From the NCBI GenBank assembly GCA_964525635.1, contig CAZGJX010000032.1, positions 1 through 36,785 of the forward strand: a stretch of 36,785 nt of DNA. The letters run 5' to 3'. A program made the translations under genes and the position numbers. The notes beneath the pieces were generated by a model. It saw nothing but the letters and a program-made list of their open reading frames with translations, was not told the origin of the DNA and ran no database searches. The DNA is from an uncultured archaeon. Its GTDB lineage: Archaea > Asgardarchaeota > Lokiarchaeia > Sigyniarchaeales > SOKP01. Each line of letters begins with the position of its first letter. Position 1 is the first letter of the stretch. Shown here one piece after another: positions 4,290 through 20,427 of this stretch.

Positions 4290-6377
4290 ATGAATGCTGA
4301 GAATTTACCTTATGATCAAAAAAAAAATGTTATAATCAAAAAAGATTTAAAAAAAGTATCAAATCTTAAAAAAACCTTTAATATAATTAATCAACATTTA
4401 TATGGTAAATTAAAATATACAGATACAGATACAAGAACTCGATCAAAAGAGATTATTAATCTTCTATTTTGTAAACTTGTTGATGAAATATCGAAAAGTC
4501 CAGAAGAACCTGTAGAATTTTGTATTAAGAATAATGAAACAGAAGAAATACTTTTTGAAAGAATTAACTTATTTTTTCAAAAAAAAGTCAAAGAGATATA
4601 TCAAGAAATTATAGAATTTAAGGAAAGAATAAATCTAAATAAAGATTTACTATACATTATAGTTCAAGAATTACAATATATATCACTAGTTCAATCGTCT
4701 AAAGATGTAATAAGTGATGCTTTTGAAATATTCGTTAGTAAAATTTTAAAAGATGAGGGAGGTCAGTTTTTTACACCTTCAAATATCATAAAGTTTATGG
4801 TCAATTATTTAAATCCTGTTCCCCATGATAGGATTTTAGATCCTGCATGTGGACATGGAGGTTTCTTATTAGAATGTAAGGATTATTTATGGTCTAAAAT
4901 AGATTCAGAACAAAAGAAAATTAAGATAATATCTAATTTATATGGAATTGATAAAGATTTATTTCTTTCTAAAATATGTAAACTTCATTTAGAAATATTG
5001 AGCAATGGTTTATCTAATATTTTCTGTGAAGATTCTTTAGATCCTACAAATTATCATTCTAAATTAAGGAATATGAATATTGAGAATCAATTTGATATTA
5101 TTCTCACAAATCCACCATTTGGAACAAAAATTCCAATCAATAATAAAAACATATTAAAAATTTATAAACTAGGTCATGTTTGGGAGAATATATTAAATAA
5201 TAAATGGGAAATGAGAGATAATTTGCATAAAAAGCAATCCCCACAGGTATTATTCATAGAGAGATGTATTCAATTACTTAAAGACGGAGGTAAATTAGGT
5301 ATAGTTTTACCTGAGGGTATTTTTGGAAATCCTTCTGATAGATATATTTGGGAATATTTAGAACAAAATGGAAAGATTTTGGGAATTATATCCTTAGATC
5401 AGAACTCGTTTCAGCCGTTTACCTGCAATAAGACTAGTATATTGTTTTTTCAGAAATTAAAATCTATTCCTGAGGATTATCTAATAGATTTCGCTATTAT
5501 AGATAATGTTGGACATGATAAAGATGGTAAAATTTGTTACAAATTAAATAAAGATGGCAGTAAAAAGACCAATGCAGAAGGAAAATCATCAATCAATGAT
5601 GATCTAATAAAATTACATCTTAAAATCAATGAAAGTGAGGAATTCAATTATCTGAAAGATCAAAAAATATTTAAAATAAATTTATCTAAAATAAAAGATA
5701 AAATTTACATACCTAATTATTATATTGGTGTGGAAAAAAATCTAAAAAAGCTAACTGATAATTCTAATTTCACTTTATTATCAATCCAAGATTTAATTGA
5801 TAGAAAGATCATTTTTGTAAATAAAAATGGATATCTACCAAGAGGGGATGAGATTGGATCACATGTATATGGTTTCGGAGATATTCCATTTATTAGAACT
5901 AGTGAAATATCAAATTGGGATATAAACCTTAATTCTAATAAAAAAACTTCTGAAGAAATATATAATAAATATAGACAAAAACAAAATATTGAGGTCGGGG
6001 ATATTCTTTTAGTTAAAGATGGTGGTTCTAACTTAATTGGGCAAACAGGTTTTGTAACAGAACTAGATAAAAAAATAATTATCCAGAGTCATATATATCA
6101 AATAAAAACTTTGGAAAATGGTGAAGCTATTGATGAGTATTTATTATTATATCTCTTGAATCTTAATATTGTTCAAAAGCAGATTCAGGCAATAACTTTC
6201 GTTCAAGGAACCATAGCAACAATTGGAAATAGGATTAAACAGGTAAAATTACCATTTCCCACGAATATTAACAAAAGAAAAGAGATTTCTAATTATATAA
6301 AAACTATGATAAAGAAAAAAACTGATATAAGAAGAGAGATTTTAAATTTGAACATCGATTCATTTTCGAATATTTAA
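4290..6377 (+). CDS. N6-adenine DNA methyltransferase (HsdM-like) fused to one HsdS-like target-recognition domain
   Basis: GQFFTP, motif I ILDPACGHGGFL, motif IV ILTNPPFG, LFIERC..LLK.GG..GIVLPEG; C-terminal IPFIRTSEI...VGDILLVKDG typical of HsdS TRDs. Confidence 0.88.
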   Translation: MNAENLPYDQKKNVIIKKDLKKVSNLKKTFNIINQHLYGKLKYTDTDTRTRSKEIINLLFCKLVDEISKSPEEPVEFCIKNNETEEILFERINLFFQKKVKEIYQEIIEFKERINLNKDLLYIIVQELQYISLVQSSKDVISDAFEIFVSKILKDEGGQFFTPSNIIKFMVNYLNPVPHDRILDPACGHGGFLLECKDYLWSKIDSEQKKIKIISNLYGIDKDLFLSKICKLHLEILSNGLSNIFCEDSLDPTNYHSKLRNMNIENQFDIILTNPPFGTKIPINNKNILKIYKLGHVWENILNNKWEMRDNLHKKQSPQVLFIERCIQLLKDGGKLGIVLPEGIFGNPSDRYIWEYLEQNGKILGIISLDQNSFQPFTCNKTSILFFQKLKSIPEDYLIDFAIIDNVGHDKDGKICYKLNKDGSKKTNAEGKSSINDDLIKLHLKINESEEFNYLKDQKIFKINLSKIKDKIYIPNYYIGVEKNLKKLTDNSNFTLLSIQDLIDRKIIFVNKNGYLPRGDEIGSHVYGFGDIPFIRTSEISNWDINLNSNKKTSEEIYNKYRQKQNIEVGDILLVKDGGSNLIGQTGFVTELDKKIIIQSHIYQIKTLENGEAIDEYLLLYLLNLNIVQKQIQAITFVQGTIATIGNRIKQVKLPFPTNINKRKEISNYIKTMIKKKTDIRREILNLNIDSFSNI

Positions 6378-6593: not shown

Positions 6594-7925
6594 ATGGAAA
6601 TTTTTTTAAAGAGAGCACAGAACCCTTTTAGAGAAAAGATTGGAGAGGAAAAAACCCAAGCTATCTTTCAAGAATTAAAAAAAATTCTCAGTTTGATCCC
6701 TGTAGAATTTTCTGAAACCATAGGATCAGAGATTCCAAGATTATTGTTTAAATATTCTCAAAACCTTCAAAATTTATCGAATGAATCAATTGAAGGAATA
6801 TTAACTCATTTCTTAGTGTTTTCATTAGCTATAAACGATCTTGCAAATCAAAATCTCAAACAAGTAAATCAAAAGATATTGAATAGAAGTAAATCAAAAT
6901 TACGGAATTTATCAGATCTTCTAAATAATTTTATAGAAGAATCAAAAAAAGGAAATATTATCGAAAAATCAGGAAGGTTTGAAGATATACTTAATTTTAT
7001 GGTTGGCGGAACAAAAGAAGTAACTCAATTGGATGAATTTACTTTATTTATAAAAAGAGCCTCTGACAATTTTAGGAATAAGTTAGAAGAAGAATATATT
7101 CAAAATTTTTCTGAAGATTTTTATCAAGCATTGAATAATATTGATAACAATCTTAAAGGAACCATAGATTCAAAGTTATCTAAATATCTTTTTAAATTCT
7201 CTCAAGATATATCTCGAATAAAATCTGATGAATTGAAAAATGTATTAAATACTCATTTATTATTTGCTAAATCACTTGGAAATCTTAAAGGGAAAAATAA
7301 AAAGCAATTAGACCAAGAAGTTATGAGAAGAAGTAAGAATGAATTAAATGGATTATTCGATTTATTTAAAACTTTCTTGGTAAAAATAAAAGAGAAAAAG
7401 TTTACGGAAGTAGTTGAAAATATAGATCAAATCATTGATTTTGTTCTTGGTTCTGAAAAAAAACATGTTCAATTTACAGACGTAGGTGGATTTCTAAAAA
7501 GAGTTGAAGATAAATATGCTAGAATTTTAGGAGAAATTAAAGCTCAAACATTAATTGATAATTTATTACAAGCACTCTCAGAAATTCCTGAAATTCATGG
7601 CTCTTATTTAGCTTCAGACATCTCACGATATTTGACTAAATATTCTGAGACAATGAATAATCTAGAATCAAAAGAAATCGAACAAACTATATTAAGATCA
7701 CTAATTTTTTCAAATTCTTTAAAAGAACTTGGCGATTTAAATAGAGAGGAAATAAATCAATTTATAATAAATCGTTCAAAACGTAAAATTCGTGGTTTAT
7801 TTGACCTATACAAACTATTTTTGGAGACTAATAAACCTATCTTTATAAAATCAAAAAATCCTAGCTTTGATGAAATTATTGAATACAGTCTTGGGAAATA
7901 TGAAGGACCTAAAACTATTGAAGAA
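6594..7925 (+). repeat. Three diverged in-frame repeats of 148 codons (444 bp)
   Basis: Gap-free alignment of F.KR, L.K(Y/F)S, RSK..(L/I)..L.DL...F and (F/I)..I..(F/Y)..G motifs at constant 148-aa spacing. Confidence 0.9.
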
Positions 7926-9713
7926 GCAAGTAATATTCATGATTTATTAGTAGAATATCATGAAATAATTCCTTTATCTGAAGAACATTCTCGATGGGCT
8001 GATGCTATTAATATTATATTAACTCGATATATCGAAATCCTCCCAAATGAAGAGGGAGATCAAATTTTAGACCAACTTTGGAACAAAACTTATCCAGAAA
8101 ATAAAATAAATGGAGATTTTCAAGAAAAAATTATTGAGCTTCCAAGAGAAGATGAAAAAAAATTTATGTTTAGGATTATGAATTTATTGACAAGGCCTAT
8201 TTTAAAAAACAAGAATTCTGATAATGCTTTAACTGGTTCCGTAGCATTTGTAATTTTAGGAAGAATACTTCTTGAAATATATAGCGGACGTAATCCAATG
8301 ATCCGTGCAATTAAAGTAAATCAATTATTAAAAGATAGGAAATTTGCTGATTCTGAAAAAAAACACACAATTGATGATCACATAAATAGTATAATTAAAG
8401 AAGACCTAAATGCAATAAAAAAGAGAACAATGATAGTTAGATCTATAATTCCCATTCTTACATTAAAAGGATTTTATATTCAAACTTATGATATTAATAG
8501 AAAAAAATATCCTGAGATAATCGTAGATATGTTTAAGGATGTAAGTCCCCTCGAAAGTATAGGAAAAGAATATTTAAAAACCCAGAAACGTATTAATACT
8601 TTAGGAAATATAAATACGATCTATTATTATATTGATTTAGTTAAAAAATTTGATAAGTATTTCTTTAAAGAAGCAGAATCAGTTCCATTAGATTCTGTTA
8701 AAAAGAGAGGAATATTGAATGAATATTTTAAAGCACTTTTTGATTTATACGACAATTTAGAAATTAACAAATATTATGAGCATGATATTATTGCTTCTGA
8801 TCGCTTGATATATATCTATTTAATGAAGTATTTGTATGAGCCTTCAAAGAGTTGTTTTGACCTTATTGAAAAATTCCTTGAAGAAAATCAAGATTATGTA
8901 AAAGTTAAATCTATGGATTATTATCTAAGTCAAATAAAACAGAAAGAAAGTAAAATGGGGATTGATCAACTAAATGAAGATATACAAAACGCAACTTCAG
9001 AAGGATTTGAAGAGGATTCTGAGAAATTATTAAGATTAAAAAAAATGCTTGAACAGCAAAAACTAGATATTACAAGGTTCCGTTTTATGAATGATCTTTT
9101 TAATGAAGCTAAGGAAGTTAGACCAATTTTAGAATCTAGAATAATTTTCGGTAAGACTTTATTTACTTTTTTAGATATTATAAAGAATATTAATAGAAAT
9201 CTCTCTGCGATTTTTCATGATTATTTAATTAATCTATTAGAATTCTCAAACGAAATTGACAAGACTTTAAATAAAGTCCAAAAATTAAGAACGAAAAAAT
9301 TAATTTCACCTTCTGAATACTATGAAATAAATCAAGCAACTGAAATGTCAAAGAATAAATTAACAGAATTAGCTACAGATGAGAATTTTACAAATCATGT
9401 TAAGAGGATGGTAGAAGCATATGATAATAATGTATTATATAGTGAATATATTGAAGAATCAATTTTAGAAGAAGATAATGGTGAAACTATTGAAGAAATT
9501 AATCCATTGGAAAAATATTATAATAAATATTATGAAGAATTGACTGCAGTACCCTCAACAAATTCATTTAATAAATTTATGGAAGCATTTAATTTTTGGG
9601 TAAAAGATGAGATATTACCAGTAACTTATAATAAAGCAGAACAGATGCTATTGAATCTAATTTTTAAAAAGATAAATAAGAAATATTTATCAGAACTTAC
9701 ATCATTAGAATGA
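6594..9713 (+). CDS. Large alpha-helical hypothetical protein with three N-terminal 148-aa tandem repeats
   Basis: 1039-aa ORF; F(L/I)KR at residues 4/152/300 and RSK at 98/246/394; no catalytic motif seen. Confidence 0.85.
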   Translation: MEIFLKRAQNPFREKIGEEKTQAIFQELKKILSLIPVEFSETIGSEIPRLLFKYSQNLQNLSNESIEGILTHFLVFSLAINDLANQNLKQVNQKILNRSKSKLRNLSDLLNNFIEESKKGNIIEKSGRFEDILNFMVGGTKEVTQLDEFTLFIKRASDNFRNKLEEEYIQNFSEDFYQALNNIDNNLKGTIDSKLSKYLFKFSQDISRIKSDELKNVLNTHLLFAKSLGNLKGKNKKQLDQEVMRRSKNELNGLFDLFKTFLVKIKEKKFTEVVENIDQIIDFVLGSEKKHVQFTDVGGFLKRVEDKYARILGEIKAQTLIDNLLQALSEIPEIHGSYLASDISRYLTKYSETMNNLESKEIEQTILRSLIFSNSLKELGDLNREEINQFIINRSKRKIRGLFDLYKLFLETNKPIFIKSKNPSFDEIIEYSLGKYEGPKTIEEASNIHDLLVEYHEIIPLSEEHSRWADAINIILTRYIEILPNEEGDQILDQLWNKTYPENKINGDFQEKIIELPREDEKKFMFRIMNLLTRPILKNKNSDNALTGSVAFVILGRILLEIYSGRNPMIRAIKVNQLLKDRKFADSEKKHTIDDHINSIIKEDLNAIKKRTMIVRSIIPILTLKGFYIQTYDINRKKYPEIIVDMFKDVSPLESIGKEYLKTQKRINTLGNINTIYYYIDLVKKFDKYFFKEAESVPLDSVKKRGILNEYFKALFDLYDNLEINKYYEHDIIASDRLIYIYLMKYLYEPSKSCFDLIEKFLEENQDYVKVKSMDYYLSQIKQKESKMGIDQLNEDIQNATSEGFEEDSEKLLRLKKMLEQQKLDITRFRFMNDLFNEAKEVRPILESRIIFGKTLFTFLDIIKNINRNLSAIFHDYLINLLEFSNEIDKTLNKVQKLRTKKLISPSEYYEINQATEMSKNKLTELATDENFTNHVKRMVEAYDNNVLYSEYIEESILEEDNGETIEEINPLEKYYNKYYEELTAVPSTNSFNKFMEAFNFWVKDEILPVTYNKAEQMLLNLIFKKINKKYLSELTSLE

Positions 9714-9983
9714 AAAATATAAGTAATTATTAAAATTTAACAAATATCCAATAATACTCTAAGTCATTATTTCTTTTTCTGTTTCTATTTAATTTATATA
9801 TTTTCTATTTAATCTCATGAAGAAAAAAGCCATTATTGTTATAAAAAGAAAAAGATAATTATTAAAATATAAAAAAAACTAAAATTAGAAAAAGCAGAAT
9901 ATCCAAAATTTTTCGTATATTTTAATTTATAGTTTATATTAACCTAATTAAAGTTAACAAAAAAAAATCTTAATACTAATAAA

Positions 9984-11408
9984 ATGGATTTAAAAATAAT
10001 AGAAAAGGCGAAAGAACTCAAAAATGAAATGTCTTTAGAGGAAAGCTCACAAGTTCTTTCAAATTCTTTTAATGACATTACAAACCTATTAAAAGCTATA
10101 GCAAGTCCAAAGCGGTTGATGGTATTAAATTATTTATTACAACAACCAAGAAATTTCTCATTTCTTTTAAATAAATTACGAATTAAACGAACAACTCTTG
10201 TTCATCACCTAGATTTCTTAATCGAAACCAATTTAATCGATAGAGAAGATTGGGGTAGATATTGTATCACTGATATTGGATTAAAATTTATTAAAGCAAT
10301 TACAAGTACCTATCAAAATATTATATTTGAACAACAAGAAGAACATCAACAAATTATTAATCAATATAACCAATGGCCCCAATTTTATAGAGCTTCGGGG
10401 GTAATAAAAGAAAATTTAGTAAGTAATGAGGCTAAATACCAATCAGGATGGAATTCATATATATCTGCTACCTCCGGAGTTCTTATTTCTTTAGGAGTAC
10501 CTCATGATTATATCTATATAGGTGGTAGAACAGGATATTGTTTCATTGTGAATGCAACACATCTTATTAGCGCCTCTATTTTATCAAAAAATGCATGGCA
10601 AGAAATATATAAAGGTACGGAAAGTTTTGGATGGAAAATGAATCTTTGGAAGAAAAAAAGAAAATATTCTTGTGCATGGCAGTTAGAAAATGAAGATTAT
10701 GATTTAGGTTTAGATGTTTTTAATCAAGTCGCAAAAATTATTGATGATTATAATACTCCTGTAGTTTTATTAGGTGTTCATGGAAGTGGATTCGCTATCA
10801 TAAATGGGTATCAAAATGATAGTTACCTTGTTAGTACTTATTACCATATTGAAGGTCGCGAAGAAATACCTATAAGATTTGATCAATTAAGATTGATTAA
10901 CAAATTTACTTACTTTTATTTCACCAAAAATCAAGAAAAAGAGAATCCAGAATTTGAGGATAAAAAATCAATTAAACGAGCAATAGAATTTGCAAAAGGA
11001 ATTCATTTTTCCCAAAGTGACTTTACTTCAGGTCCTCAAGCGTATGATACATGGATTGATGTTTTAAGTTCAGGAAAAAAGGATCATATCGAAAAAATAG
11101 GAAATAATATTTTGGGTCAGTTTGACTATGATTCTAAATCTATAGCTACAGAATATTTGGAAAGATTATATTATAAATATAAAGAAAACCAACAAGCACA
11201 ATTCTTAAAAGATGCAAGTCAATGTTATAAAAAAGCAATGATGGAATTAGAACCGTTTACACAGATGTTTCCACATCCTAAACAAAGAAACAATAATCTT
11301 ACTTTAGAAAGTCGGAACAATGGTGTAAAAATACTTAAAAAAGTAAAAAACTATCAAATTGATGCAATAGAAAATCTAGAAAAAGCATATGAGAAATGGA
11401 AACTTTAG
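9984..11408 (+). CDS. ArsR/SmtB-type winged-helix regulator fused to a large C-terminal (BtrH/papain-like?) domain
   Basis: LLKAIASPKRL.VL..L...HHLDFL...LI.....GRY.IT..G winged HTH; C-terminal G.TGYCF, PVVL.G, IINGY....YLV, G..AYD.W pattern. Confidence 0.75.
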   Translation: MDLKIIEKAKELKNEMSLEESSQVLSNSFNDITNLLKAIASPKRLMVLNYLLQQPRNFSFLLNKLRIKRTTLVHHLDFLIETNLIDREDWGRYCITDIGLKFIKAITSTYQNIIFEQQEEHQQIINQYNQWPQFYRASGVIKENLVSNEAKYQSGWNSYISATSGVLISLGVPHDYIYIGGRTGYCFIVNATHLISASILSKNAWQEIYKGTESFGWKMNLWKKKRKYSCAWQLENEDYDLGLDVFNQVAKIIDDYNTPVVLLGVHGSGFAIINGYQNDSYLVSTYYHIEGREEIPIRFDQLRLINKFTYFYFTKNQEKENPEFEDKKSIKRAIEFAKGIHFSQSDFTSGPQAYDTWIDVLSSGKKDHIEKIGNNILGQFDYDSKSIATEYLERLYYKYKENQQAQFLKDASQCYKKAMMELEPFTQMFPHPKQRNNNLTLESRNNGVKILKKVKNYQIDAIENLEKAYEKWKL

Positions 11409-11650
11409 TTAAATTTTTTGGATTATCATCTTAATTTAAAATTTAAAATAATTATAAAATTACGATTTTTTCTTTTTTATAGCTTTGGAACAAATTGATA
11501 TATATTTTATCATACAACAGAATTCTTTTATTTGAATTTTAATTACCATTTTATACTAAAATCAATAGTTCAAATTTAATTGAACAATTTATAATTCATA
11601 TTACTTTTCAGTTAAGACATAGTATAATCGCTGTTTTTTTGATTAAAAAA

Positions 11651-11672
11651 TTATACTATAAAAATAGTATAA
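11651..11672. promoter_or_regulatory. Candidate operator: TTATACTAT-N4-ATAGTATAA inverted repeat
   Basis: Perfect 9-bp arms, extra half-site ATAGTATAA at 11619-11627 and TTATACTA at 11551-11558; lies about 23 bp upstream of a TATA-like box. Confidence 0.4.
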
Positions 11673-11694
11673 AAATCCTAGAAAAATACTAATA

Positions 11695-11745
11695 TTTAAA
11701 TATCATTTGAAATGTCACTCTGTAACTCTATTAACATAGAGAGGT
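11695..11745 (+). promoter_or_regulatory. Putative TATA box (TTTAAATA, 11695-11702) and GAGGT ribosome-binding site for the GH9 gene
   Basis: Archaeal TATA consensus about 55 bp before ATG 11756; GAGGT at 11741-11745. Confidence 0.45.
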
Positions 11746-11755
11746 ATTTTTAATA

Positions 11756-14700
11756 ATGGAAAAAAAACTTAAAAATAGCTTAATTGGAATAATTATAGCA
11801 CTTATTGTGATAATTGGTTCAACTGTTGGTATTCTTCTCTATTTAGGTACGACGACTACAGAAGAAGAACCAGTGGCACCCATTATTATAACCCCTCCGG
11901 CTGATATTACTTATACTCTGGGTGATACTGGAAACAGTCTTATTTGGACTGCTACAGATGATAATCCTGATACATATACTATCTCTCGAAATGGAGGTCA
12001 AGTTGATAGTGGTACTTGGACTTCTGGTTTACCAATAACAATAAGTGTTGATGGTTTAAGTGCAGGGATTTATACATATGTTATTATAGTTGAAGATGAA
12101 GATGCTCTAACTGCAACAGATTCTGCAACTGTTACTGTTCTCTCACCCCCAAGTTTCTCAAAAACACCTTCTGACATATCATTTAAATTTAATACTACAG
12201 AAAACATACTTAGCTGGACACCTATCGATGATAATCCAGATACATATACAATCTCTCAAGATAGTGTAACAGTAGTACCTGCTACTGCTTGGACTTCAGG
12301 AGTTCCAATCACTTATGATGTTAGTGATTTAGCTTTAGGTAATTATAATTTCGAAATCATAGTTAGTGATGATGATGCATTAAGTGCTTCTGATTCCGTT
12401 CTAGTAAATAGTATACCAACGCATAATTATGGAGAAGCTTTACAAAAATCAATATATTTCTATATGCAACAACGTTCTGGAGACTTACCTGAAGATAATC
12501 CTGTAATTTGGAGAGATGATTCTTGTTTAAATGACGGTGCAGATTGGAGTGTTGATCTTACTGGTGGTTATTTTGATGCCGGTGATCATGTAAAGTATAA
12601 TTTACCAATGGCATCTACAGTTACTACTTTAGCTTGGGCTCTTTATGAATTTGAAGATGCTTTTATAGCAACGGATCAATTGGATGCAACGGTTGATGCT
12701 ATTAAATGGGCGACCGACTACTTGATGAAATGTCACATCTCACCTTATGAATATTTCTTCCAAGTAGCTTGGGGACAAGATGACCATGATGTTTGGGCTT
12801 CTGCAGAAATGATTGATAGACTATATGTTAGAGAAGCTTTTAAAGCAAATTTAACTCATGGAGCTACAACACCTATTGCTGCTACTGCTGCTGCCTTAGC
12901 TTTTACTTCTATTGTTTTAGAAACTATTGATCCTGTCTATGCTGCTCAATGTTTGGGACATGCTGAAATATTATATGATTTTGCCAATTTAACGCGAAAT
13001 GATGACTATTATAACGCAACAGCTGTTGAATATTTATCTTATTCTGGATTCTGGGATGAATTAGCTGCTGCTGGAGCATTATTATATCTTAAAACTGGCA
13101 ATGAAATCTATCTAAATGAATCAAAAGTAAATATAATGGTGCCACTTAATTCAGGAAATCGAACATGGACTCATGTATGGGACCAAATGAATTATATGAC
13201 ATATGTCTTATTAGCACAGATAACAGGAAATGAGACATATATTGAATTTATTGAAGAATATTTAGATTGGTGGCTTCCTACTGGTGAAATAGATTATACA
13301 CCTGGTGGTCTTGCTTGGTTAAGTGAATGGGGAGCTCTAAGATATGCTGCAAACACAGCTTTCGTAGCTTCAATTTGGGCTACAGATCCTTTATCTACTC
13401 CAGCAAATAGATCACTATACTTGGATTTTGTAGAAAACCAAATTAATTATGCTTTAGGAGATAATCCTGAAGAAAGAAGTTATATGTGTGGTTTTGGAGT
13501 GAATCCTCCAATAAATCCTCATCATAGAACTGCTCATGGATCTTGGGCTGCTACCCAAACACTTCCGGAAAATAATCAACATATTTTATTTGGAGCTCTT
13601 GTAGGTGGACCCGGGCTTGACGACTCCTATGAAGATGATAGAGCTGACTTCGTAAAGAATGAAGTTGCTTGTGATTATAATTCTGGTTTAGTAGGAGCAT
13701 TAGCTTATTTATCTAGTATCTATTCTGCAAATATGACAATACTAGATGACTTTCCGGAAAATTACTTTACTCCAGAAGATGAACGCCTTCCAGAAATGTT
13801 TGCATTAGCAAAAATGGATGTAGATCGCGATCCTAGAGGAGAAATCCTTGATAATGGTAATTTTACAGATGGATTTACTTCTTGGACTGATCAAAGTTTC
13901 TGGTCTCCTGCTGTATATGAATATGTACCTATAGATGGATACTTATTTGTGAACATTACAAATGCTCAAAATCCTACTGGAGAATATCCTTATTATATAC
14001 AATTAGTTCAAGGACCTTTAATTGTTGAGAAAGGATTTAATTATACAATTAGCTTTGATGCTCGCGGTAATGCAACTAGGGAAATCGATGTAGCACTTGG
14101 ACAGTCTGGTGGTGCCTATACAAGATTTGGTGAGATAAAGGATAATTTAACTACCAGTTGGACTCATTATGAATATTCATTTATTATGACACATGACACA
14201 GAAGTAGCTGCTCGTATTGAATTCAATTTAGCTATGAGTAATACTAGCTTGTCTATTGACAATGTCAGTATTATTGAAAGTGCTCAAGTTGAATTAATAG
14301 AATATGAAGGAGAAATTCTCCAAAATGGAGATTTCTCAGAAGGACCTATTGGATTAGATTCTTGGACAGAATCATCAACATGGTACGATACAAATTTCAC
14401 AATTGATGCGTCGAGTGGTGTAGCATTTGTTAATATTTCAGATATAACAGGAAACGGATGGGAAGTCAGCATGAGGCAAGAAGCTATAGGATTACAAGCA
14501 AATCAAAATTATACTATGAGTTTCTACGCTTGGGCTGATGCACCTAGAAGTCTTCGTTTCTTAATTCAAAATGTATCACTTGGTTGGCCACCTTATGCAT
14601 ACAGTGATATAGGTATAACAACAACCCCAACTCTATATGAATTAACATTTAATTTTACAAACCCTAGAGACGATACCAACGCAAGATTTGAATTCCAGAT

Positions 14701-15661
14701 GGGGCTGAGTGATATAAATCTATATATTGATAATGTTAGCATTTATTCATTCGCCGAAGTTGAACAAGGGCTCCCAAGTATTGAGGGTGAGCTTGTTACC
14801 AATGGAGACTTTTCAGATGGTCAAACTGCTTGGAGTGACGGAAGTTGGAGCGGTGCAAATGCGACATATAATATAGTAGCAGGAGAATTTTTCATAGACA
14901 TATTGGATAATGAATCTCTTGATTATGAAGTTCAAATAACTCAAAGTCCTATACCTCTTAGAACAGGAATAACTTATAATTGTAGTTTCTATGCTAGAGG
15001 AACCGATAATCGCACTATTAAAGTGTTGCTTGTCCAACCTGGAACTTACATGTCTTATTATGAAATTGAGTATAATTTAACTACAAAAATGACCAAATAT
15101 GAATTTACTTATACTATGACTTACGATACAGATGAAGCAGCCATTTTTCAAATGAATTTTGGTGGAGTTGCTGTAAGTGTGTATCTGGATGATATTGGTA
15201 TCTATTCACCAGATATAATCGATTATGTAACAACTACCGTCAACATCCGATTGTGTAATTATGCAGCTTGGCCTGCAAGATCGCATGATGATCTCGCATA
15301 TCGATATTTCTTTGATGTAACTGAAGTATATACTGCGGGATTTACAATCAATGATGTAGCAGTAACACTTGATCCTGATTCAGAAGCAACTGTAACTGGC
15401 CCTATTCAATGGTCTGGCTATATCTATTATGTGGAAGTCTATTATGACGGAGTTGAGCTCTTTCCTGCAGGTGGCGGGAACGAATATAGAGAAGCTCAAC
15501 TAATTCTTGGTCTTAAAGCCTTAGAAAATTATGAAACGGCATGGGATCCAACTAATGATTGGTCCTATCAAGGATTAAACAATGATTGGAGTGTATCAGA
15601 TTATATTCCAGTTTATGACTATGGATTAGGTACAATTCTATATGGGACTGTACCCCCTTAA
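11756..15661 (+). CDS. Membrane-anchored GH9 endoglucanase/cellulase: TM anchor - 2x Ig-like - GH9 - CBM3c split by 3x CBM4/9
   Basis: N-terminal hydrophobic helix; GH9 motifs NYGEALQKSIYFY..QRSG.LP, LTGGYFDAGDHVK, PHHRTAH, GALVGGP, YEDDR.D...NEVACDYN; three NG.F..G...W...IDNVSI-type modules; C-terminal WPAR...RYFFD...WDPTNDWSYQGL...IPVYD CBM3c motifs. Confidence 0.93.
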   Translation: MEKKLKNSLIGIIIALIVIIGSTVGILLYLGTTTTEEEPVAPIIITPPADITYTLGDTGNSLIWTATDDNPDTYTISRNGGQVDSGTWTSGLPITISVDGLSAGIYTYVIIVEDEDALTATDSATVTVLSPPSFSKTPSDISFKFNTTENILSWTPIDDNPDTYTISQDSVTVVPATAWTSGVPITYDVSDLALGNYNFEIIVSDDDALSASDSVLVNSIPTHNYGEALQKSIYFYMQQRSGDLPEDNPVIWRDDSCLNDGADWSVDLTGGYFDAGDHVKYNLPMASTVTTLAWALYEFEDAFIATDQLDATVDAIKWATDYLMKCHISPYEYFFQVAWGQDDHDVWASAEMIDRLYVREAFKANLTHGATTPIAATAAALAFTSIVLETIDPVYAAQCLGHAEILYDFANLTRNDDYYNATAVEYLSYSGFWDELAAAGALLYLKTGNEIYLNESKVNIMVPLNSGNRTWTHVWDQMNYMTYVLLAQITGNETYIEFIEEYLDWWLPTGEIDYTPGGLAWLSEWGALRYAANTAFVASIWATDPLSTPANRSLYLDFVENQINYALGDNPEERSYMCGFGVNPPINPHHRTAHGSWAATQTLPENNQHILFGALVGGPGLDDSYEDDRADFVKNEVACDYNSGLVGALAYLSSIYSANMTILDDFPENYFTPEDERLPEMFALAKMDVDRDPRGEILDNGNFTDGFTSWTDQSFWSPAVYEYVPIDGYLFVNITNAQNPTGEYPYYIQLVQGPLIVEKGFNYTISFDARGNATREIDVALGQSGGAYTRFGEIKDNLTTSWTHYEYSFIMTHDTEVAARIEFNLAMSNTSLSIDNVSIIESAQVELIEYEGEILQNGDFSEGPIGLDSWTESSTWYDTNFTIDASSGVAFVNISDITGNGWEVSMRQEAIGLQANQNYTMSFYAWADAPRSLRFLIQNVSLGWPPYAYSDIGITTTPTLYELTFNFTNPRDDTNARFEFQMGLSDINLYIDNVSIYSFAEVEQGLPSIEGELVTNGDFSDGQTAWSDGSWSGANATYNIVAGEFFIDILDNESLDYEVQITQSPIPLRTGITYNCSFYARGTDNRTIKVLLVQPGTYMSYYEIEYNLTTKMTKYEFTYTMTYDTDEAAIFQMNFGGVAVSVYLDDIGIYSPDIIDYVTTTVNIRLCNYAAWPARSHDDLAYRYFFDVTEVYTAGFTINDVAVTLDPDSEATVTGPIQWSGYIYYVEVYYDGVELFPAGGGNEYREAQLILGLKALENYETAWDPTNDWSYQGLNNDWSVSDYIPVYDYGLGTILYGTVPP
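11876..12415 (+). repeat. Two tandem approx. 90-aa Ig-like repeats in the GH9 protein
   Basis: P.DI......N.L.WT..DDNPDTYTIS.....WTSG.PIT..V..L..G.Y...IIV.D.DAL.A.DS; nucleotide identity visible (gatgataatcc.gatacatatac.atctctc twice). Confidence 0.88.
13838..15208 (+). repeat. Three tandem CBM4/9-like modules (approx. 157-159 aa spacing)
   Basis: Starts GEILDNGNF (aa 695), GEILQNGDF (aa 852), GELVTNGDF (aa 1011); shared Y..SF.A, A..(E/Q)F, (I/L)D(N/D)(V/I).I motifs. Confidence 0.85.
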
Positions 15662-15691
15662 AACTTATAAAACCAATATAAAATTTATCAA

Positions 15692-15710
15692 TTTTTTTTT
15701 TTTTTATTTT
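15692..15710 (+). terminator. Oligo-T archaeal-type terminator after the GH9 gene
   Basis: Run of 14 T starting about 30 bp after the stop codon. Confidence 0.55.
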
Positions 15711-16534
15711 CATAATAAAAATAAGATATAGTTATATTAAGTCAATAATTCAAGATGATTTAGAAAAGAAATTAAATAAAGAACATCTTCGACTTTATAG
15801 ATGGTTTTTAAGTCATAAAGCTCAAATCTCCCAAAGTATATCAAAAGAAATAGAATGGATAAATTTGAGGATTTTTTAAAATGCATCAAAAATATTTAAA
15901 TAATTGAACTTCAGAAATAGCTAAAACAGATATAAAAGAAGGAAGAAAAAATAATATTAAATGATTAATAAGGTTTGCATGTGATCCATTAGAAGAAGAT
16001 AGATTCAAATATAGTTATGTAAAAGAGATAATGGAATTTATCAATTTCAAATAACTAATTGCCGTTCTGTCAAGTAGATAAAAATGATATAAATTCATAT
16101 CTTTTATCACTTTACCTTGCATCTCAAATAAGTGTTCATTGAACTCACAGAGCTCTCCCTACCTTATTATCATCAATCACCTTTCAGCGGGAACGGGACT
16201 CGCTACATTCTGATAGATCTCAAATTCATTATCTTCTGGAATACTCCAGAAACATCGATTTTGTTTTGTTTTTATCGTACCAATGAAATATGAATTGAAA
16301 TTTCTTCCCAATTTTTCTTTTACTCCTGAAATATGAGTAATTTTCCCCAATTGAGGGATATCCTCTTTTATTTTTTATACATGTTCTATTGGATGTGTGT
16401 TTACATTTTCTTATTCTCTCTTATAATTGACCTCTGTTATGATTTTATCTATAAGAAATAGAAAATTCATTTTAAAACCATAGAGAATGAAAAATTTCTA
16501 ATTTAGTAAATGGATATGAAGAAATTGTAGTTAA

Positions 16535-16792
16535 AACATAGATATAGAAAACATAAGAGAGATAGGAGGAATTATATTAAAATTATTCAAATTTATTTAC
16601 ATTTTAGAACTATTGAAGAACCCTATAATAAATACAGCTAAAGATTTAAGAATTGAAGAATGGATCTTTTTATATATATGTATGAGCGACTCTCCTATAA
16701 ATGAGAAATATAATCCAAATACTATTTTTAGCCATTCGAAAACGAAAATGCAAGGGAATGATTATTGTAATCATTGTTATTTCTGGAAGTAA
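16535..16792 (+). pseudogene. C-terminal remnant of an L-2-amino-thiazoline-4-carboxylic-acid-hydrolase-like (ATC hydrolase family) gene
   Basis: Frame reads ...INTAKDLRIEEWIFLYICMSDSPINEKYNPNTIFSHSKTKMQGNDYCNHCYFWK*, matching the C..D......NP.....KT.MQG..YC pattern recalled for this family; upstream part interrupted by stops. Confidence 0.55.
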
Positions 16793-19165: not shown

Positions 19166-19227
19166 CAATTTTGATTTGTTTTTCTAGTACATCTTAAATC
19201 TAATTTTAGATTAATATTAATGTGAAT

Positions 19228-20427
19228 ATGTATAAAAAGCAAAATCAATATGATTATACACTTGAAACATTCAAATCAATTCAAAATAAATTAGATAAAG
19301 ATTTTAAAAATAAACTTCATGAAAAAAAGGTTTTTTTGGCAATTGATGGATTTATTGATTCAATTTATTCTATGATTAAAACACGTAGTAGCTCGGATAT
19401 ATATCAAAGATTTAATACTATAAATGAATTAGCTGATCGTTTATATGAAATAAAGGGAAGTTCTGGAAATATTGAGCTTAAATTAAAGAAATCTACAATA
19501 GGGGGATTCGTCCCAAATAATGCAAAAGCTTTAAGTTCTTTAGGTATTAAAATATTTCTTTTAGGGGCATTGGGATATCCCCAAATCAATAATATTTTCA
19601 AACCACTGATATCAAAGAAAAATGTGGAGATTTGTTCAATAGCAAATCCTGGAAAAACAATAGGACTAGAATTTAATGATGGCAAAATTATGCTCTCTGA
19701 TTTAGAAGATCTTTCAGAAATAAATTGGAATTTATTAGAACAAAGGATTGATATGGAAAAACTTATTAAAAACCTTGAGAATTCAAATACAATTGGATTT
19801 GGATATTGGGGATTAACGCAAGAATTATCAGATATATGGAAACATTTAGTAGAGGAAATTTTTCCATCTATTAATAATTTAAATAAAAAACTTTTTTCAA
19901 TAGATTTAGGTGATTTTAAAAAGCATAATAAATCAAGTATTCTGGAAATGATTGAAGTACTTAAAAATATCGAGGAGCAAATCCCTGTCTTATTAAGCTT
20001 AAATGATCAAGAAGCAATTGATCTCTCTAAATCCCTTAACGATAACAACACAATTCCTCTCAATAAAAGAAATAAAGAAGATTTCATCTTTAGAGGTAAT
20101 ACAATTAACAAAAAGATAAATTTATCTTATATTGTAATACATTCACCCCACTTTGCAACAATATCTTTAAAGAATGATAAAAATCATTTTTGGATAACTG
20201 AAGGATTTACCTCAAAACCATCTTTTACAATTTCTGGTGGAGATCATTTTCTTTCTGGCGTTATTGCAGGTTTTTTAGGTGATTTAAAACCTCCAGAAGC
20301 AATACTTATGGGTAATGCATTAACGGCTACTTTCGTTAGAACAGGAACTTCTCCTAGATTTGGACAATTAAAAGAATTTATAAAAAAATATATGGAATAT
20401 ATCTATAAAGATAATCCTTTTTTTTAA
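19228..20427 (+). CDS. PfkB/ribokinase-like carbohydrate kinase
   Basis: DGFIDSI, GGFVPNNA.AL, LSLNDQEA, C-terminal TISGGDHFLSG anion-hole motif; start at ATG 19228 or GTG 19222. Confidence 0.75.
   Translation: MYKKQNQYDYTLETFKSIQNKLDKDFKNKLHEKKVFLAIDGFIDSIYSMIKTRSSSDIYQRFNTINELADRLYEIKGSSGNIELKLKKSTIGGFVPNNAKALSSLGIKIFLLGALGYPQINNIFKPLISKKNVEICSIANPGKTIGLEFNDGKIMLSDLEDLSEINWNLLEQRIDMEKLIKNLENSNTIGFGYWGLTQELSDIWKHLVEEIFPSINNLNKKLFSIDLGDFKKHNKSSILEMIEVLKNIEEQIPVLLSLNDQEAIDLSKSLNDNNTIPLNKRNKEDFIFRGNTINKKINLSYIVIHSPHFATISLKNDKNHFWITEGFTSKPSFTISGGDHFLSGVIAGFLGDLKPPEAILMGNALTATFVRTGTSPRFGQLKEFIKKYMEYIYKDNPFF

What the first reader, a model, noticed from the sequence alone, without database searches (positions are those of the whole stretch)
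11756..15661. Cell-anchored, multi-module GH9 cellulase in an Asgard-like archaeal Wood-Ljungdahl context
Seen: intact GH9 catalytic motifs (DAGD base aspartates, HHR, NEVACDYN acid glutamate), an N-terminal membrane helix, Ig-like stalk, CBM3c and three CBM4/9 modules. Established: GH9-CBM3c enzymes (Thermobifida Cel9A, clostridial CelI type) are processive endoglucanases best known from cellulolytic bacteria. Inference: this archaeon displays a tethered cellulose/beta-glucan-degrading enzyme, a single-chain alternative to a cellulosome, implying polysaccharide-fed metabolism beside cdhBC/ftr.
Basis: partly seen in the sequence, partly recalled or inferred. Interest (0 to 1): 0.85.

Follow-up and report, generated by a model that had tools for sequence, protein, structure and literature searches.

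The report
Asgard cellulase with inserted binding modules
A salt-marsh Asgard archaeon encodes a probably membrane-tethered cellulose-cutting enzyme in which three sugar-binding modules are spliced into the middle of its helper domain, and it works beside, not instead of, a cellulosome-like complex in the same genome; activity is untested.

Summary
The 1301-aa gene is real and not chimeric, and its GH9 catalytic residues are intact. In a predicted model the split CBM3c closes onto the GH9 as in clostridial CelQ (583/600 residues, 1.6 A). I found this layout only in one clade, in 5 of 161 genomes of the class. Membrane tethering is inferred from a long N-terminal helix and a sequon excess shared with anchored proteins. 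'Alternative to a cellulosome' is not supported: this genome has 25 dockerin matches and anchored multi-cohesin scaffoldins, and all five carriers have cohesins and dockerins. The adjacent winged-helix regulator and a conserved upstream palindrome point to cello-oligosaccharide control. The nearby cdhBC/ftr genes add no evidence. The scan had already noted the cellulosome-like system on other DNA of this genome and the split CBM3c on this stretch; I found both before looking. Verdict: new variant of a known kind; activity, tethering and binding untested.

The parts
11756..15661 (+). GH9 glucanase gene, 1301 aa, with three CBM4 modules inserted in CBM3c
11780..11845 (+). N-terminal hydrophobic helix (aa 9-30), probable uncleaved membrane anchor
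   Evidence: only hydrophobic segment, KD19 2.89, 28-residue apolar run; anchor is inferred
11879..12412 (+). two Ig/PKD-like repeats (about aa 42-219), same family as the scaffoldin spacers in this genome
   Evidence: Pfam K319L-like PKD; many in-genome paralogues
12422..13720 (+). GH9 catalytic barrel; D274, D277, H589, R591, E636, Y641, plus Y426, W525, Y530
13721..13795 (+). conserved GH9-CBM3c linker (about aa 656-680)
   Evidence: E680 conserved in 78 of 80 uninterrupted relatives
13796..13819 (+). CBM3c strand 1 (aa 681-688), separated from the rest of its domain
   Evidence: alignment; strand at pLDDT 95
13835..14284 (+). CBM4 module 1 (groove aromatics W716, Y746, Y788)
14309..14749 (+). 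CBM4 module 2 (W876, W902, W944)
14786..15208 (+). CBM4 module 3 (W1031, Y1057, Y1098); best PDB match Thermotoga laminarinase CBM4, 1GUI, E 2.5e-9
15230..15658 (+). remainder of CBM3c (strand 2 onward)
   Evidence: Pfam CBM_3 model positions 14-83 only
11651..11672 (.). perfect palindrome (9-bp arms, 4-bp spacer), candidate operator
   Evidence: conserved 41-42 bp upstream of the TATA box in orthologues and at ABC/GH94 promoters beside regulator homologues
11695..11702 (+). candidate TATA box
   Evidence: kept at the same spacing in orthologous promoters
9984..11408 (+). winged-helix (ArsR-like) regulator with a C-terminal domain of unknown family; candidate cognate regulator
   Evidence: adjacent in orthologous loci; homologues flank oligosaccharide-type ABC, GH94 and GH130 genes

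Best explanation
An active, inverting GH9 endo-beta-1,4-glucanase displayed on the cell surface by an uncleaved N-terminal helix and a two-Ig stalk, probably N-glycosylated. CBM3c strand 1 and the rest of CBM3c re-pair around a 470-aa looped-out array of three CBM4 modules, so the rigid GH9-CBM3c unit is kept and the CBM4s project from the strand 1-2 hairpin, the end of the CBM3c platform away from the catalytic domain. The CBM4 grooves hold single glucan chains (amorphous cellulose or mixed-linkage glucan) in line with the cleft and take over the binding role that CBM3b or a scaffoldin CBM3a has in bacteria. The enzyme releases cello-oligosaccharides at the membrane for uptake and phosphorolysis (GH94) or hydrolysis (GH3). 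It is a cohesin-independent companion of a cellulosome-like system, with its own promoter and neighbouring regulator. Shown: sequence, insertion point, distribution, synteny. Predicted: refolding. Inferred: activity, tethering, ligand, regulation.
For: Catalytic residues match solved GH9s. Acid-motif-to-CBM3c spacing is 63-72 aa in 95 relatives and 529-690 aa in the insert carriers (the window's listed 308 is a chance motif inside CBM4-2, true spacing about 535). Model pLDDT 87, pTM 0.70; it superposes on CelQ 583/600 at 1.6 A, Cel9G 595/612 at 1.8 A, TfCel9A 593/605 at 2.5 A across model residues 5-1084. Linker and calcium-site residues are kept. CBM3c does not bind insoluble cellulose and strands 1, 2 and 7 form its platform (PMC4579020). 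Tandem CBM4s inserted in a GH10 improve activity on insoluble substrates (PMC7848910). Sequons: 27 against 11.9 expected; anchored Loki-CTERM-like proteins median ratio 1.39, dockerin proteins 0.45, p 1.4e-6; this protein 2.28. GH94 x3 and GH3 x2. Single origin: the 7 insert carriers are one clade (100/100) on catalytic-domain columns alone, inside a 20-row clade whose rows of known origin are all these archaea (100/98).
Against: No biochemical data. The model was built on an alignment of mostly uninterrupted GH9-CBM3c proteins, which favours the canonical arrangement, and I had no coordinates to place the CBM4s; their direction is inferred from strand topology. Platform residues are partly lost (equivalents of E474, K476, R563 are T1161, N1163, I1250, PMC4579020) and the aromatic before Y426 is E425. 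Secretory N-termini in this genome reach KD19 2.74, so hydrophobicity alone does not prove an uncleaved anchor. Three clade members lack the Ig stalk; the two tested (P0007, P0010) have only 3 sequons each, so tethering is not a property of the whole family. The best CBM4 match binds beta-1,3-glucan (own knowledge), so the ligand is open. No operator was found at this genome's GH94 genes.
Confidence: 0.62

Rival explanations
1. Same enzyme, but secreted and free: the N-terminal helix is a cleaved signal peptide.
For: Dockerin enzymes of this genome have N-termini of similar hydrophobicity. A stalk-less form (P0010) occupies the same locus under a 91%-identical promoter in a related assembly.
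Against: Longest apolar run (28 residues against 10-19), a Thr-rich spacer and Ig stalk, and a sequon excess in the top 1.4% of large proteins, matching anchored rather than dockerin proteins.
Confidence: 0.2
2. A non-processive endoglucanase for soluble or mixed-linkage beta-glucans. CBM3c is only a structural cap and the CBM4s set the target, which may be algal or grass glucan or xylan-coated fibre rather than cellulose.
For: Platform residues are eroded across the insert clade, and the minus-subsite Trp (W471 here) is lost in four of six. CBM4 matches include laminarinase and xylanase modules. No crystalline-cellulose CBM in the chain; no GH48 found in this assembly.
Against: Y426, W525, R529, Y530, E1246 and Q1248 are retained here; the two-domain geometry is preserved in the model; the genome has 7 strong GH9 matches and several GH5s.
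Confidence: 0.35
3. One reading: a stand-alone, single-chain substitute for a cellulosome.
For: It has no dockerin or cohesin, carries its own binding modules and lacks the promoter motif shared by the scaffoldin genes.
Against: All 5 carriers among 161 genomes also have cohesins and 11-25 dockerin matches; none was found without them. Its catalytic domain nests among the dockerin-bearing GH9s.
Confidence: 0.07
4. Assembly or binning artefact (chimera, or bacterial contig in an archaeal bin).
For: GC rises to 35% over the gene; closest non-archaeal relatives are bacterial.
Against: Junction-bridging unitigs in other runs, the same layout and gene order in independent genomes, normal GC3 and tetranucleotide profile, archaeal cdhB/cdhC/ftr on the same contig.
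Confidence: 0.01

Closest known systems
Theme B1 GH9-CBM3c processive endoglucanases (T. fusca Cel9A 1TF4/1JS4, R. cellulolyticum Cel9G, A. thermocellus CelQ, CelR, Cel9I, B. licheniformis Cel9A)
   Same: 41-48% structural-alignment identity, same catalytic residues, same linker, same predicted two-domain geometry.
   Different: CBM3c is discontinuous, with three CBM4s in the strand 1-2 loop; platform residues partly lost; N-terminal helix and Ig stalk; no dockerin, CBM3b or CBM2; archaeal host.
Xyn10C-type xylanases of Bacteroidota (Pm25 and relatives), PMC7848910
   Same: Tandem CBM4 modules inserted into a loop of another domain, copy number variable, helping on insoluble substrates.
   Different: There the host is the GH10 catalytic barrel; here it is another CBM (CBM3c) fused to a GH9. 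No homology between the host domains; independent origin.
Cellulosome-producing bacteria that also keep non-cellulosomal GH9s (A. thermocellus Cel9I)
   Same: A dockerin-less GH9-CBM3c with its own targeting module exists beside a cohesin-dockerin system (PMC4579020).
   Different: Cel9I is free and uses an appended CBM3b; this one is probably tethered and uses inserted CBM4s.
Sulfolobus SSO1354 cell-anchored endoglucanase (own knowledge; paper not held)
   Same: Archaeal, membrane-anchored, glycosylated glucanase.
   Different: GH12, single module; a review lists characterised cellulases of hyperthermophilic archaea as GH5 and GH12 only (PMC9855744).

Membership tests
Glycoside hydrolase family 9 | (alpha/alpha)6 barrel, Pfam PF00759 above cut-off | tested here: met
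   430 bits against 27.7; Z 61.7, 1.2 A to 7V0I
Glycoside hydrolase family 9 | two base aspartates, His/Arg and acid glutamate | tested here: met
   D274, D277, H589, R591, E636
Glycoside hydrolase family 9 | hydrolysis of beta-1,4-glucan | not testable with these tools
   needs an assay
Theme B1 GH9-CBM3c processive endoglucanases | contiguous CBM3c directly after the linker | tested here: not met
   about 470-aa insertion after strand 1
Theme B1 GH9-CBM3c processive endoglucanases | CBM3c docked rigidly on the catalytic domain, conserved linker | tested here: met
   in a predicted model only: 583-600 residues at 1.6-2.5 A; alignment bias possible
Theme B1 GH9-CBM3c processive endoglucanases | conserved polar platform residues of CBM3c | tested here: inconclusive
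   E559 and Q561 equivalents kept; N466 is D; E474, K476, R563 changed; S518/Y520 not checked
Theme B1 GH9-CBM3c processive endoglucanases | processivity | not testable with these tools
   needs product analysis
CBM4 | PF02018 match and aromatic groove residues | tested here: met
   three stretches, 141.8 bits; aromatics align to 1GUI for module 3 and 4BJ0 for module 1; module 2 by position
Cellulosomal enzyme | carries a dockerin | tested here: not met
   no dockerin match on this contig
Cellulosome-encoding genome (criteria of PMC11557425) | [quoted passage not shown] | tested here: met
   3 GH9, 4 GH5 (a fifth frameshifted), 1 GH16 with dockerin
Cellulosome-encoding genome (criteria of PMC11557425) | [quoted passage not shown] | tested here: met
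   five proteins with 2-3 cohesin repeats; only some repeats pass the Pfam cut-off; fold matches solved cohesins at Z 15-16.3, 1.7-2.1 A
Cellulosome-encoding genome (criteria of PMC11557425) | cohesin-dockerin binding | tested here: inconclusive
   weak support: score 0.37, best control 0.01, runs agree in 100% of contacts, partner pLDDT at least 89. The mark was reached by 58 of 80 solved and 2 of 110 mismatched pairs, but at 0.60 or under by only 7 solved and both mismatches; a textbook pair can pass by likeness
Cellulosome-encoding genome (criteria of PMC11557425) | GH48 and a scaffoldin-borne CBM3 (common, not required) | tested here: inconclusive
   GH48 not found in this 245-contig assembly or G001; present with dockerin in G002 and G003 and matched in G035; no CBM3 apparent in the scaffoldins inspected

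The most novel reading that the evidence does not exclude
One lineage of Asgard archaea digests plant beta-glucans with a two-tier surface system: a cellulosome-like complex on membrane-anchored scaffoldins, plus a directly tethered GH9 of its own design in which a CBM4 array spliced into CBM3c feeds single chains to the cleft. The GH9 is controlled by a previously uncharacterised cello-oligosaccharide-sensing winged-helix regulator family with a definable operator.
Probability: 0.4. Interest if true: 0.88.

Novelty: new variant of a known kind. Interest (0 to 1): 0.7.

Why it matters
I found no paper describing a CBM inserted within a CBM3c, or a GH9-based cellulase system or cellulosome in Asgard archaea (the library lacks most subscription papers). 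The insertion marks a natural permissive site in the GH9-CBM3c scaffold, where CBM3c removal is known to cripple activity, so it offers a direct test of what CBM3c does and a template for enzyme engineering. Ecologically it supports primary plant-polymer degradation by a narrow Asgard lineage (5 of 161 genomes searched) in salt-marsh sediment, and it suggests a practical enrichment substrate for cultivation. The regulator-operator pair is immediately testable.

Tried and rejected
1) Chimera or contamination: rejected. 2) Functional link to neighbouring cdhBC/ftr: rejected as evidence; distant, opposite strand, and the gene order seen in relatives covers only the 1039-aa ORF to the ketohexokinase. 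3) The gene sharing the scaffoldin promoter motif: not found. 4) The palindrome as a genome-wide cellulolytic regulon: no enrichment at 41-42 bp spacing; none at the GH94 promoters. It appears local in this genome. 5) Other proteins with this junction: among the best 150 hits in 1.84 billion representatives only P0003, P0008 and P0012 span it; P0138 and P0250 were inspected and are plain CBM4 arrays. Weaker hits were not listed. 6) Fold of the regulator's C-terminal domain: no PDB sequence match; Atlas hits to C39/BtrH-like clusters score 0.84-0.86, a lead only. 7) Cohesin by sequence against PDB was weak (E 0.14-0.7), so I used the fold search. 8) Donor of the GH9: unresolved; neighbours include Planctomycetota, a few Bacillota and Bathyarchaeia, not the classic clostridial clade; no rooted test was run. 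9) No RNA holder listed. 10) The primary T. fusca Cel9A mutagenesis papers and the SSO1354 paper were not held. 12) No signal-peptide predictor was available.
Full report
Observation. Window 11756-15661 is one uninterrupted 1301-aa ORF. Pfam finds GH9 at aa 225-649 (430 bits), three CBM4/9 stretches, a CBM3 that begins only at model position 14, and a PKD-like repeat. Alignment to solved GH9s places the base aspartates D274/D277, H589/R591, the acid E636 and the cleft aromatics Y426, W525 and Y530. The gene is not an assembly product. A single unitig in the probable source run spans 8500-16104, and unitigs from three other runs bridge the domain junctions without differences (all are 2019 salt-marsh samples and may be one campaign). 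The same gene order occurs in independent genomes. GC3 and contig composition are normal for this 27%-GC genome. The host is an Asgard archaeon: the orthologous locus of a same-genus genome is identical to a record labelled Promethearchaeota bin106, and cdhB, cdhC and ftr are on the contig.

PDB alignments stop at aa 687 and resume at aa 1160. A multiple alignment shows why: the linker and first CBM3c strand are in place, then about 470 residues of CBM4 repeats follow where uninterrupted relatives have a 5-6-residue turn, then strand 2. Of 101 motif pairs measured, the distance from the catalytic acid to the CBM3c landmark is 63-72 aa in all but the insert carriers. The array has three units in five proteins and four in one. 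An AlphaFold2 model of aa 218-1301 (pLDDT 87, pTM 0.70) superposes on complete two-domain crystals: CelQ 583/600 residues at 1.6 A, Cel9G 595/612 at 1.8 A, T. fusca Cel9A 593/605 at 2.5 A. The split domain is therefore predicted to reassemble. The alignment was dominated by uninterrupted proteins, so this shows compatibility, not proof. Strands 1, 2 and 7 form the CBM3c platform, and the loop after strand 2 contacts the catalytic domain (PMC4579020). I infer from this that the strand 1-2 hairpin, and so the CBM4 array, sits at the far end of the platform in line with the cleft. All three CBM4s keep aromatic groove residues. Platform residues are partly lost. CBM3c does not itself bind insoluble cellulose and its removal lowers activity (PMC4579020), which would explain why it was kept and extended rather than replaced.

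Distribution and origin. The junction was found in 5 of 161 genomes of the class: all four of this genus and one from another family. The same five are the only ones with strong GH9 matches. Among the best 150 hits in 1.84 billion representatives only three span the junction, all from this group. On catalytic-domain columns alone, seven insert carriers form one clade (100/100) inside a 20-member clade (100/98) that includes dockerin-bearing GH9-CBM3c enzymes; three of its rows have no verified taxon. One insertion event within the archaeal expansion is the simplest reading. The best match of CBM4-1 outside the family, among the sequences held, is the CBM4 of a GH5-dockerin enzyme in the same genome (42%). 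The clade splits into a stalked subgroup (99/94; long N-terminal helix, Ig repeats, 27-33 sequons) and a stalk-less one (100/100; 3 sequons in each of the two tested). One stalk-less gene occupies the same locus under a 91%-identical promoter. Plain GH9 genes of the wider clade also occur in Bathyarchaeia, so archaeal GH9s are not unique to Asgards. The bacterial donor is unresolved.

Tethering. The only hydrophobic segment is aa 9-30. Its hydrophobicity overlaps that of secretory signals in this genome, so it is not decisive alone. Independent support comes from N-glycosylation sequons: 27 observed against 11.9 in shuffles. In this genome, proteins with a C-terminal membrane tail are enriched (median 1.39) and dockerin proteins depleted (0.45; p 1.4e-6), and this protein (2.28) falls with the anchored class. 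I put tethering at about 0.7-0.75.

Not an alternative to a cellulosome. The genome has 25 dockerin matches on GH9, GH5, GH16, peptidase and solute-binding proteins, and five proteins with two or three cohesin repeats, four ending in a Loki-CTERM-like membrane tail (the Loki-CTERM model itself hit only two related single-cohesin proteins, just under its cut-off). A cohesin model (pLDDT 97.5) has solved cohesins as its top 19 matches among 48,161 chains, best Z 16.3. One scaffoldin lies on a contig with ordinary composition and an actin-like gene. The genome meets the two screening criteria of PMC11557425. Predicted cohesin-dockerin binding is weak support only: 0.37 against a best control of 0.01, contacts agreeing 100%, partner pLDDT at least 89; the mark was reached by 58 of 80 solved and 2 of 110 mismatched pairs, at 0.60 or under by 7 solved and both mismatches, and such a textbook pair can pass by likeness. 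All five carriers have cohesins and dockerins; GH48 occurs in three of them but was not found here. Non-cellulosomal cohesins are known in Archaeoglobus (2XDH), so modules alone would not suffice; the dockerin-cellulase fusions are what make the case. Earlier scan notes report this system on other contigs; they are not independent evidence.

Regulation. A winged-helix regulator gene lies directly upstream here and in three related loci, and directly downstream in the genome from another family. A palindrome, core TACTAT-N4-ATAGTA, lies at 11651-11672. Alone it could be chance in AT-rich DNA. But variants start 41-42 bp upstream of the TATA-like box in all six promoters first examined (0-3 mismatches; the one from the other family has 3) and in two more. 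Sites with at most one mismatch occur in 0.5% of this genome's upstream regions. In other Promethearchaeota, homologues of the regulator flank a family-5 ABC transporter, GH94 or GH130 genes, and the same palindrome lies in those promoters, while two more distant homologues have none. The motif thus travels with the regulator family, which supports an operator for an oligosaccharide-responsive regulator. The site lies downstream of the TATA box at transporter promoters and upstream of it at the GH9, so the sign of control is undetermined. The scaffoldin genes use a different promoter motif that this gene lacks.

Mechanism and verdict. Most likely a surface-tethered endo-beta-1,4-glucanase whose inserted CBM4s capture single glucan chains and present them along the CBM3c platform, producing cello-oligosaccharides for GH94 and GH3 enzymes, alongside a cellulosome-like complex (confidence 0.62). 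The main uncertainty is whether it is processive on cellulose or acts on soluble and mixed-linkage glucans; the rivals overlap and their odds do not sum to one. It is a GH9, works like Cel9A/Cel9I, and fails the contiguous-CBM3c test of theme B1. The nearest precedent for the insertion is Xyn10C-type xylanases (PMC7848910), with a different host domain. Class: new variant of a known kind; interest 0.7.

Noticed in passing
window 16062-16623: About 570-bp repeat with imperfect terminal inverted ends, 95-98% identical copies on contigs C29 and C1 and a partial copy on C18; looks like a non-autonomous mobile element. The gap is only about 200 bp at the orthologous site in bin106.
   Followed up: partly
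window 6594-9713: 1039-aa helical, internally repetitive-looking protein with no Pfam match and no paralogue; 75% identical and syntenic in two relatives.
   Followed up: no
window 9984-11408; P0267-P0312: Family of about 46 winged-helix regulators with an unclassified 350-aa C-terminal domain, named members all Asgard; several sit beside ABC transporter, GH94 or GH130 genes. One paralogue on C83.
   Followed up: partly
L134:796-4269 (P0010) and L131:7413-7941: Stalked and stalk-less versions of the enzyme occupy the same locus with 91% identical promoters in two related assemblies, suggesting allele replacement. The stalk-less form has a 40-aa C-terminal tail of unknown role.
   Followed up: partly
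L096 (C75:2364-5477), C33:28193-32419, C222: GH9-CBM3c paralogues with altered catalytic motifs; C75 and C33 have C-terminal membrane helices and a shared cytoplasmic tail. C75 lacks the second base Asp and the acid Glu.
   Followed up: partly
L091:5535-8132: Family-5 solute-binding protein fused to a dockerin; 35% identical to the binding protein beside GH94 in another Promethearchaeote.
   Followed up: no
L087:4072-7301: GH5 gene with a cohesin split by a frameshift, followed by a dockerin.
   Followed up: no
L083:71-13472; C21:25558-44775: Two giant C25 peptidases with dockerins, one with three cohesins; and a 6406-aa protein with an N-terminal dockerin.
   Followed up: no
L081, L082 promoters: Scaffoldin and several dockerin-enzyme genes share a promoter motif just before the TATA-like box.
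   Followed up: partly
L015, L017, L022: Bathyarchaeia MAGs carry GH9 genes of the same wider clade, inserted among archaeal housekeeping genes; L015 matches over the full GH9-CBM3c length.
   Followed up: partly
G070:C49:122504-124165: A four-cohesin protein in a genome of another genus with no strong GH9 match.
   Followed up: no
window 19222-20427 and 4290-6377: Prokaryotic ketohexokinase (syntenic in bin106) and an N6 DNA methyltransferase.
   Followed up: no
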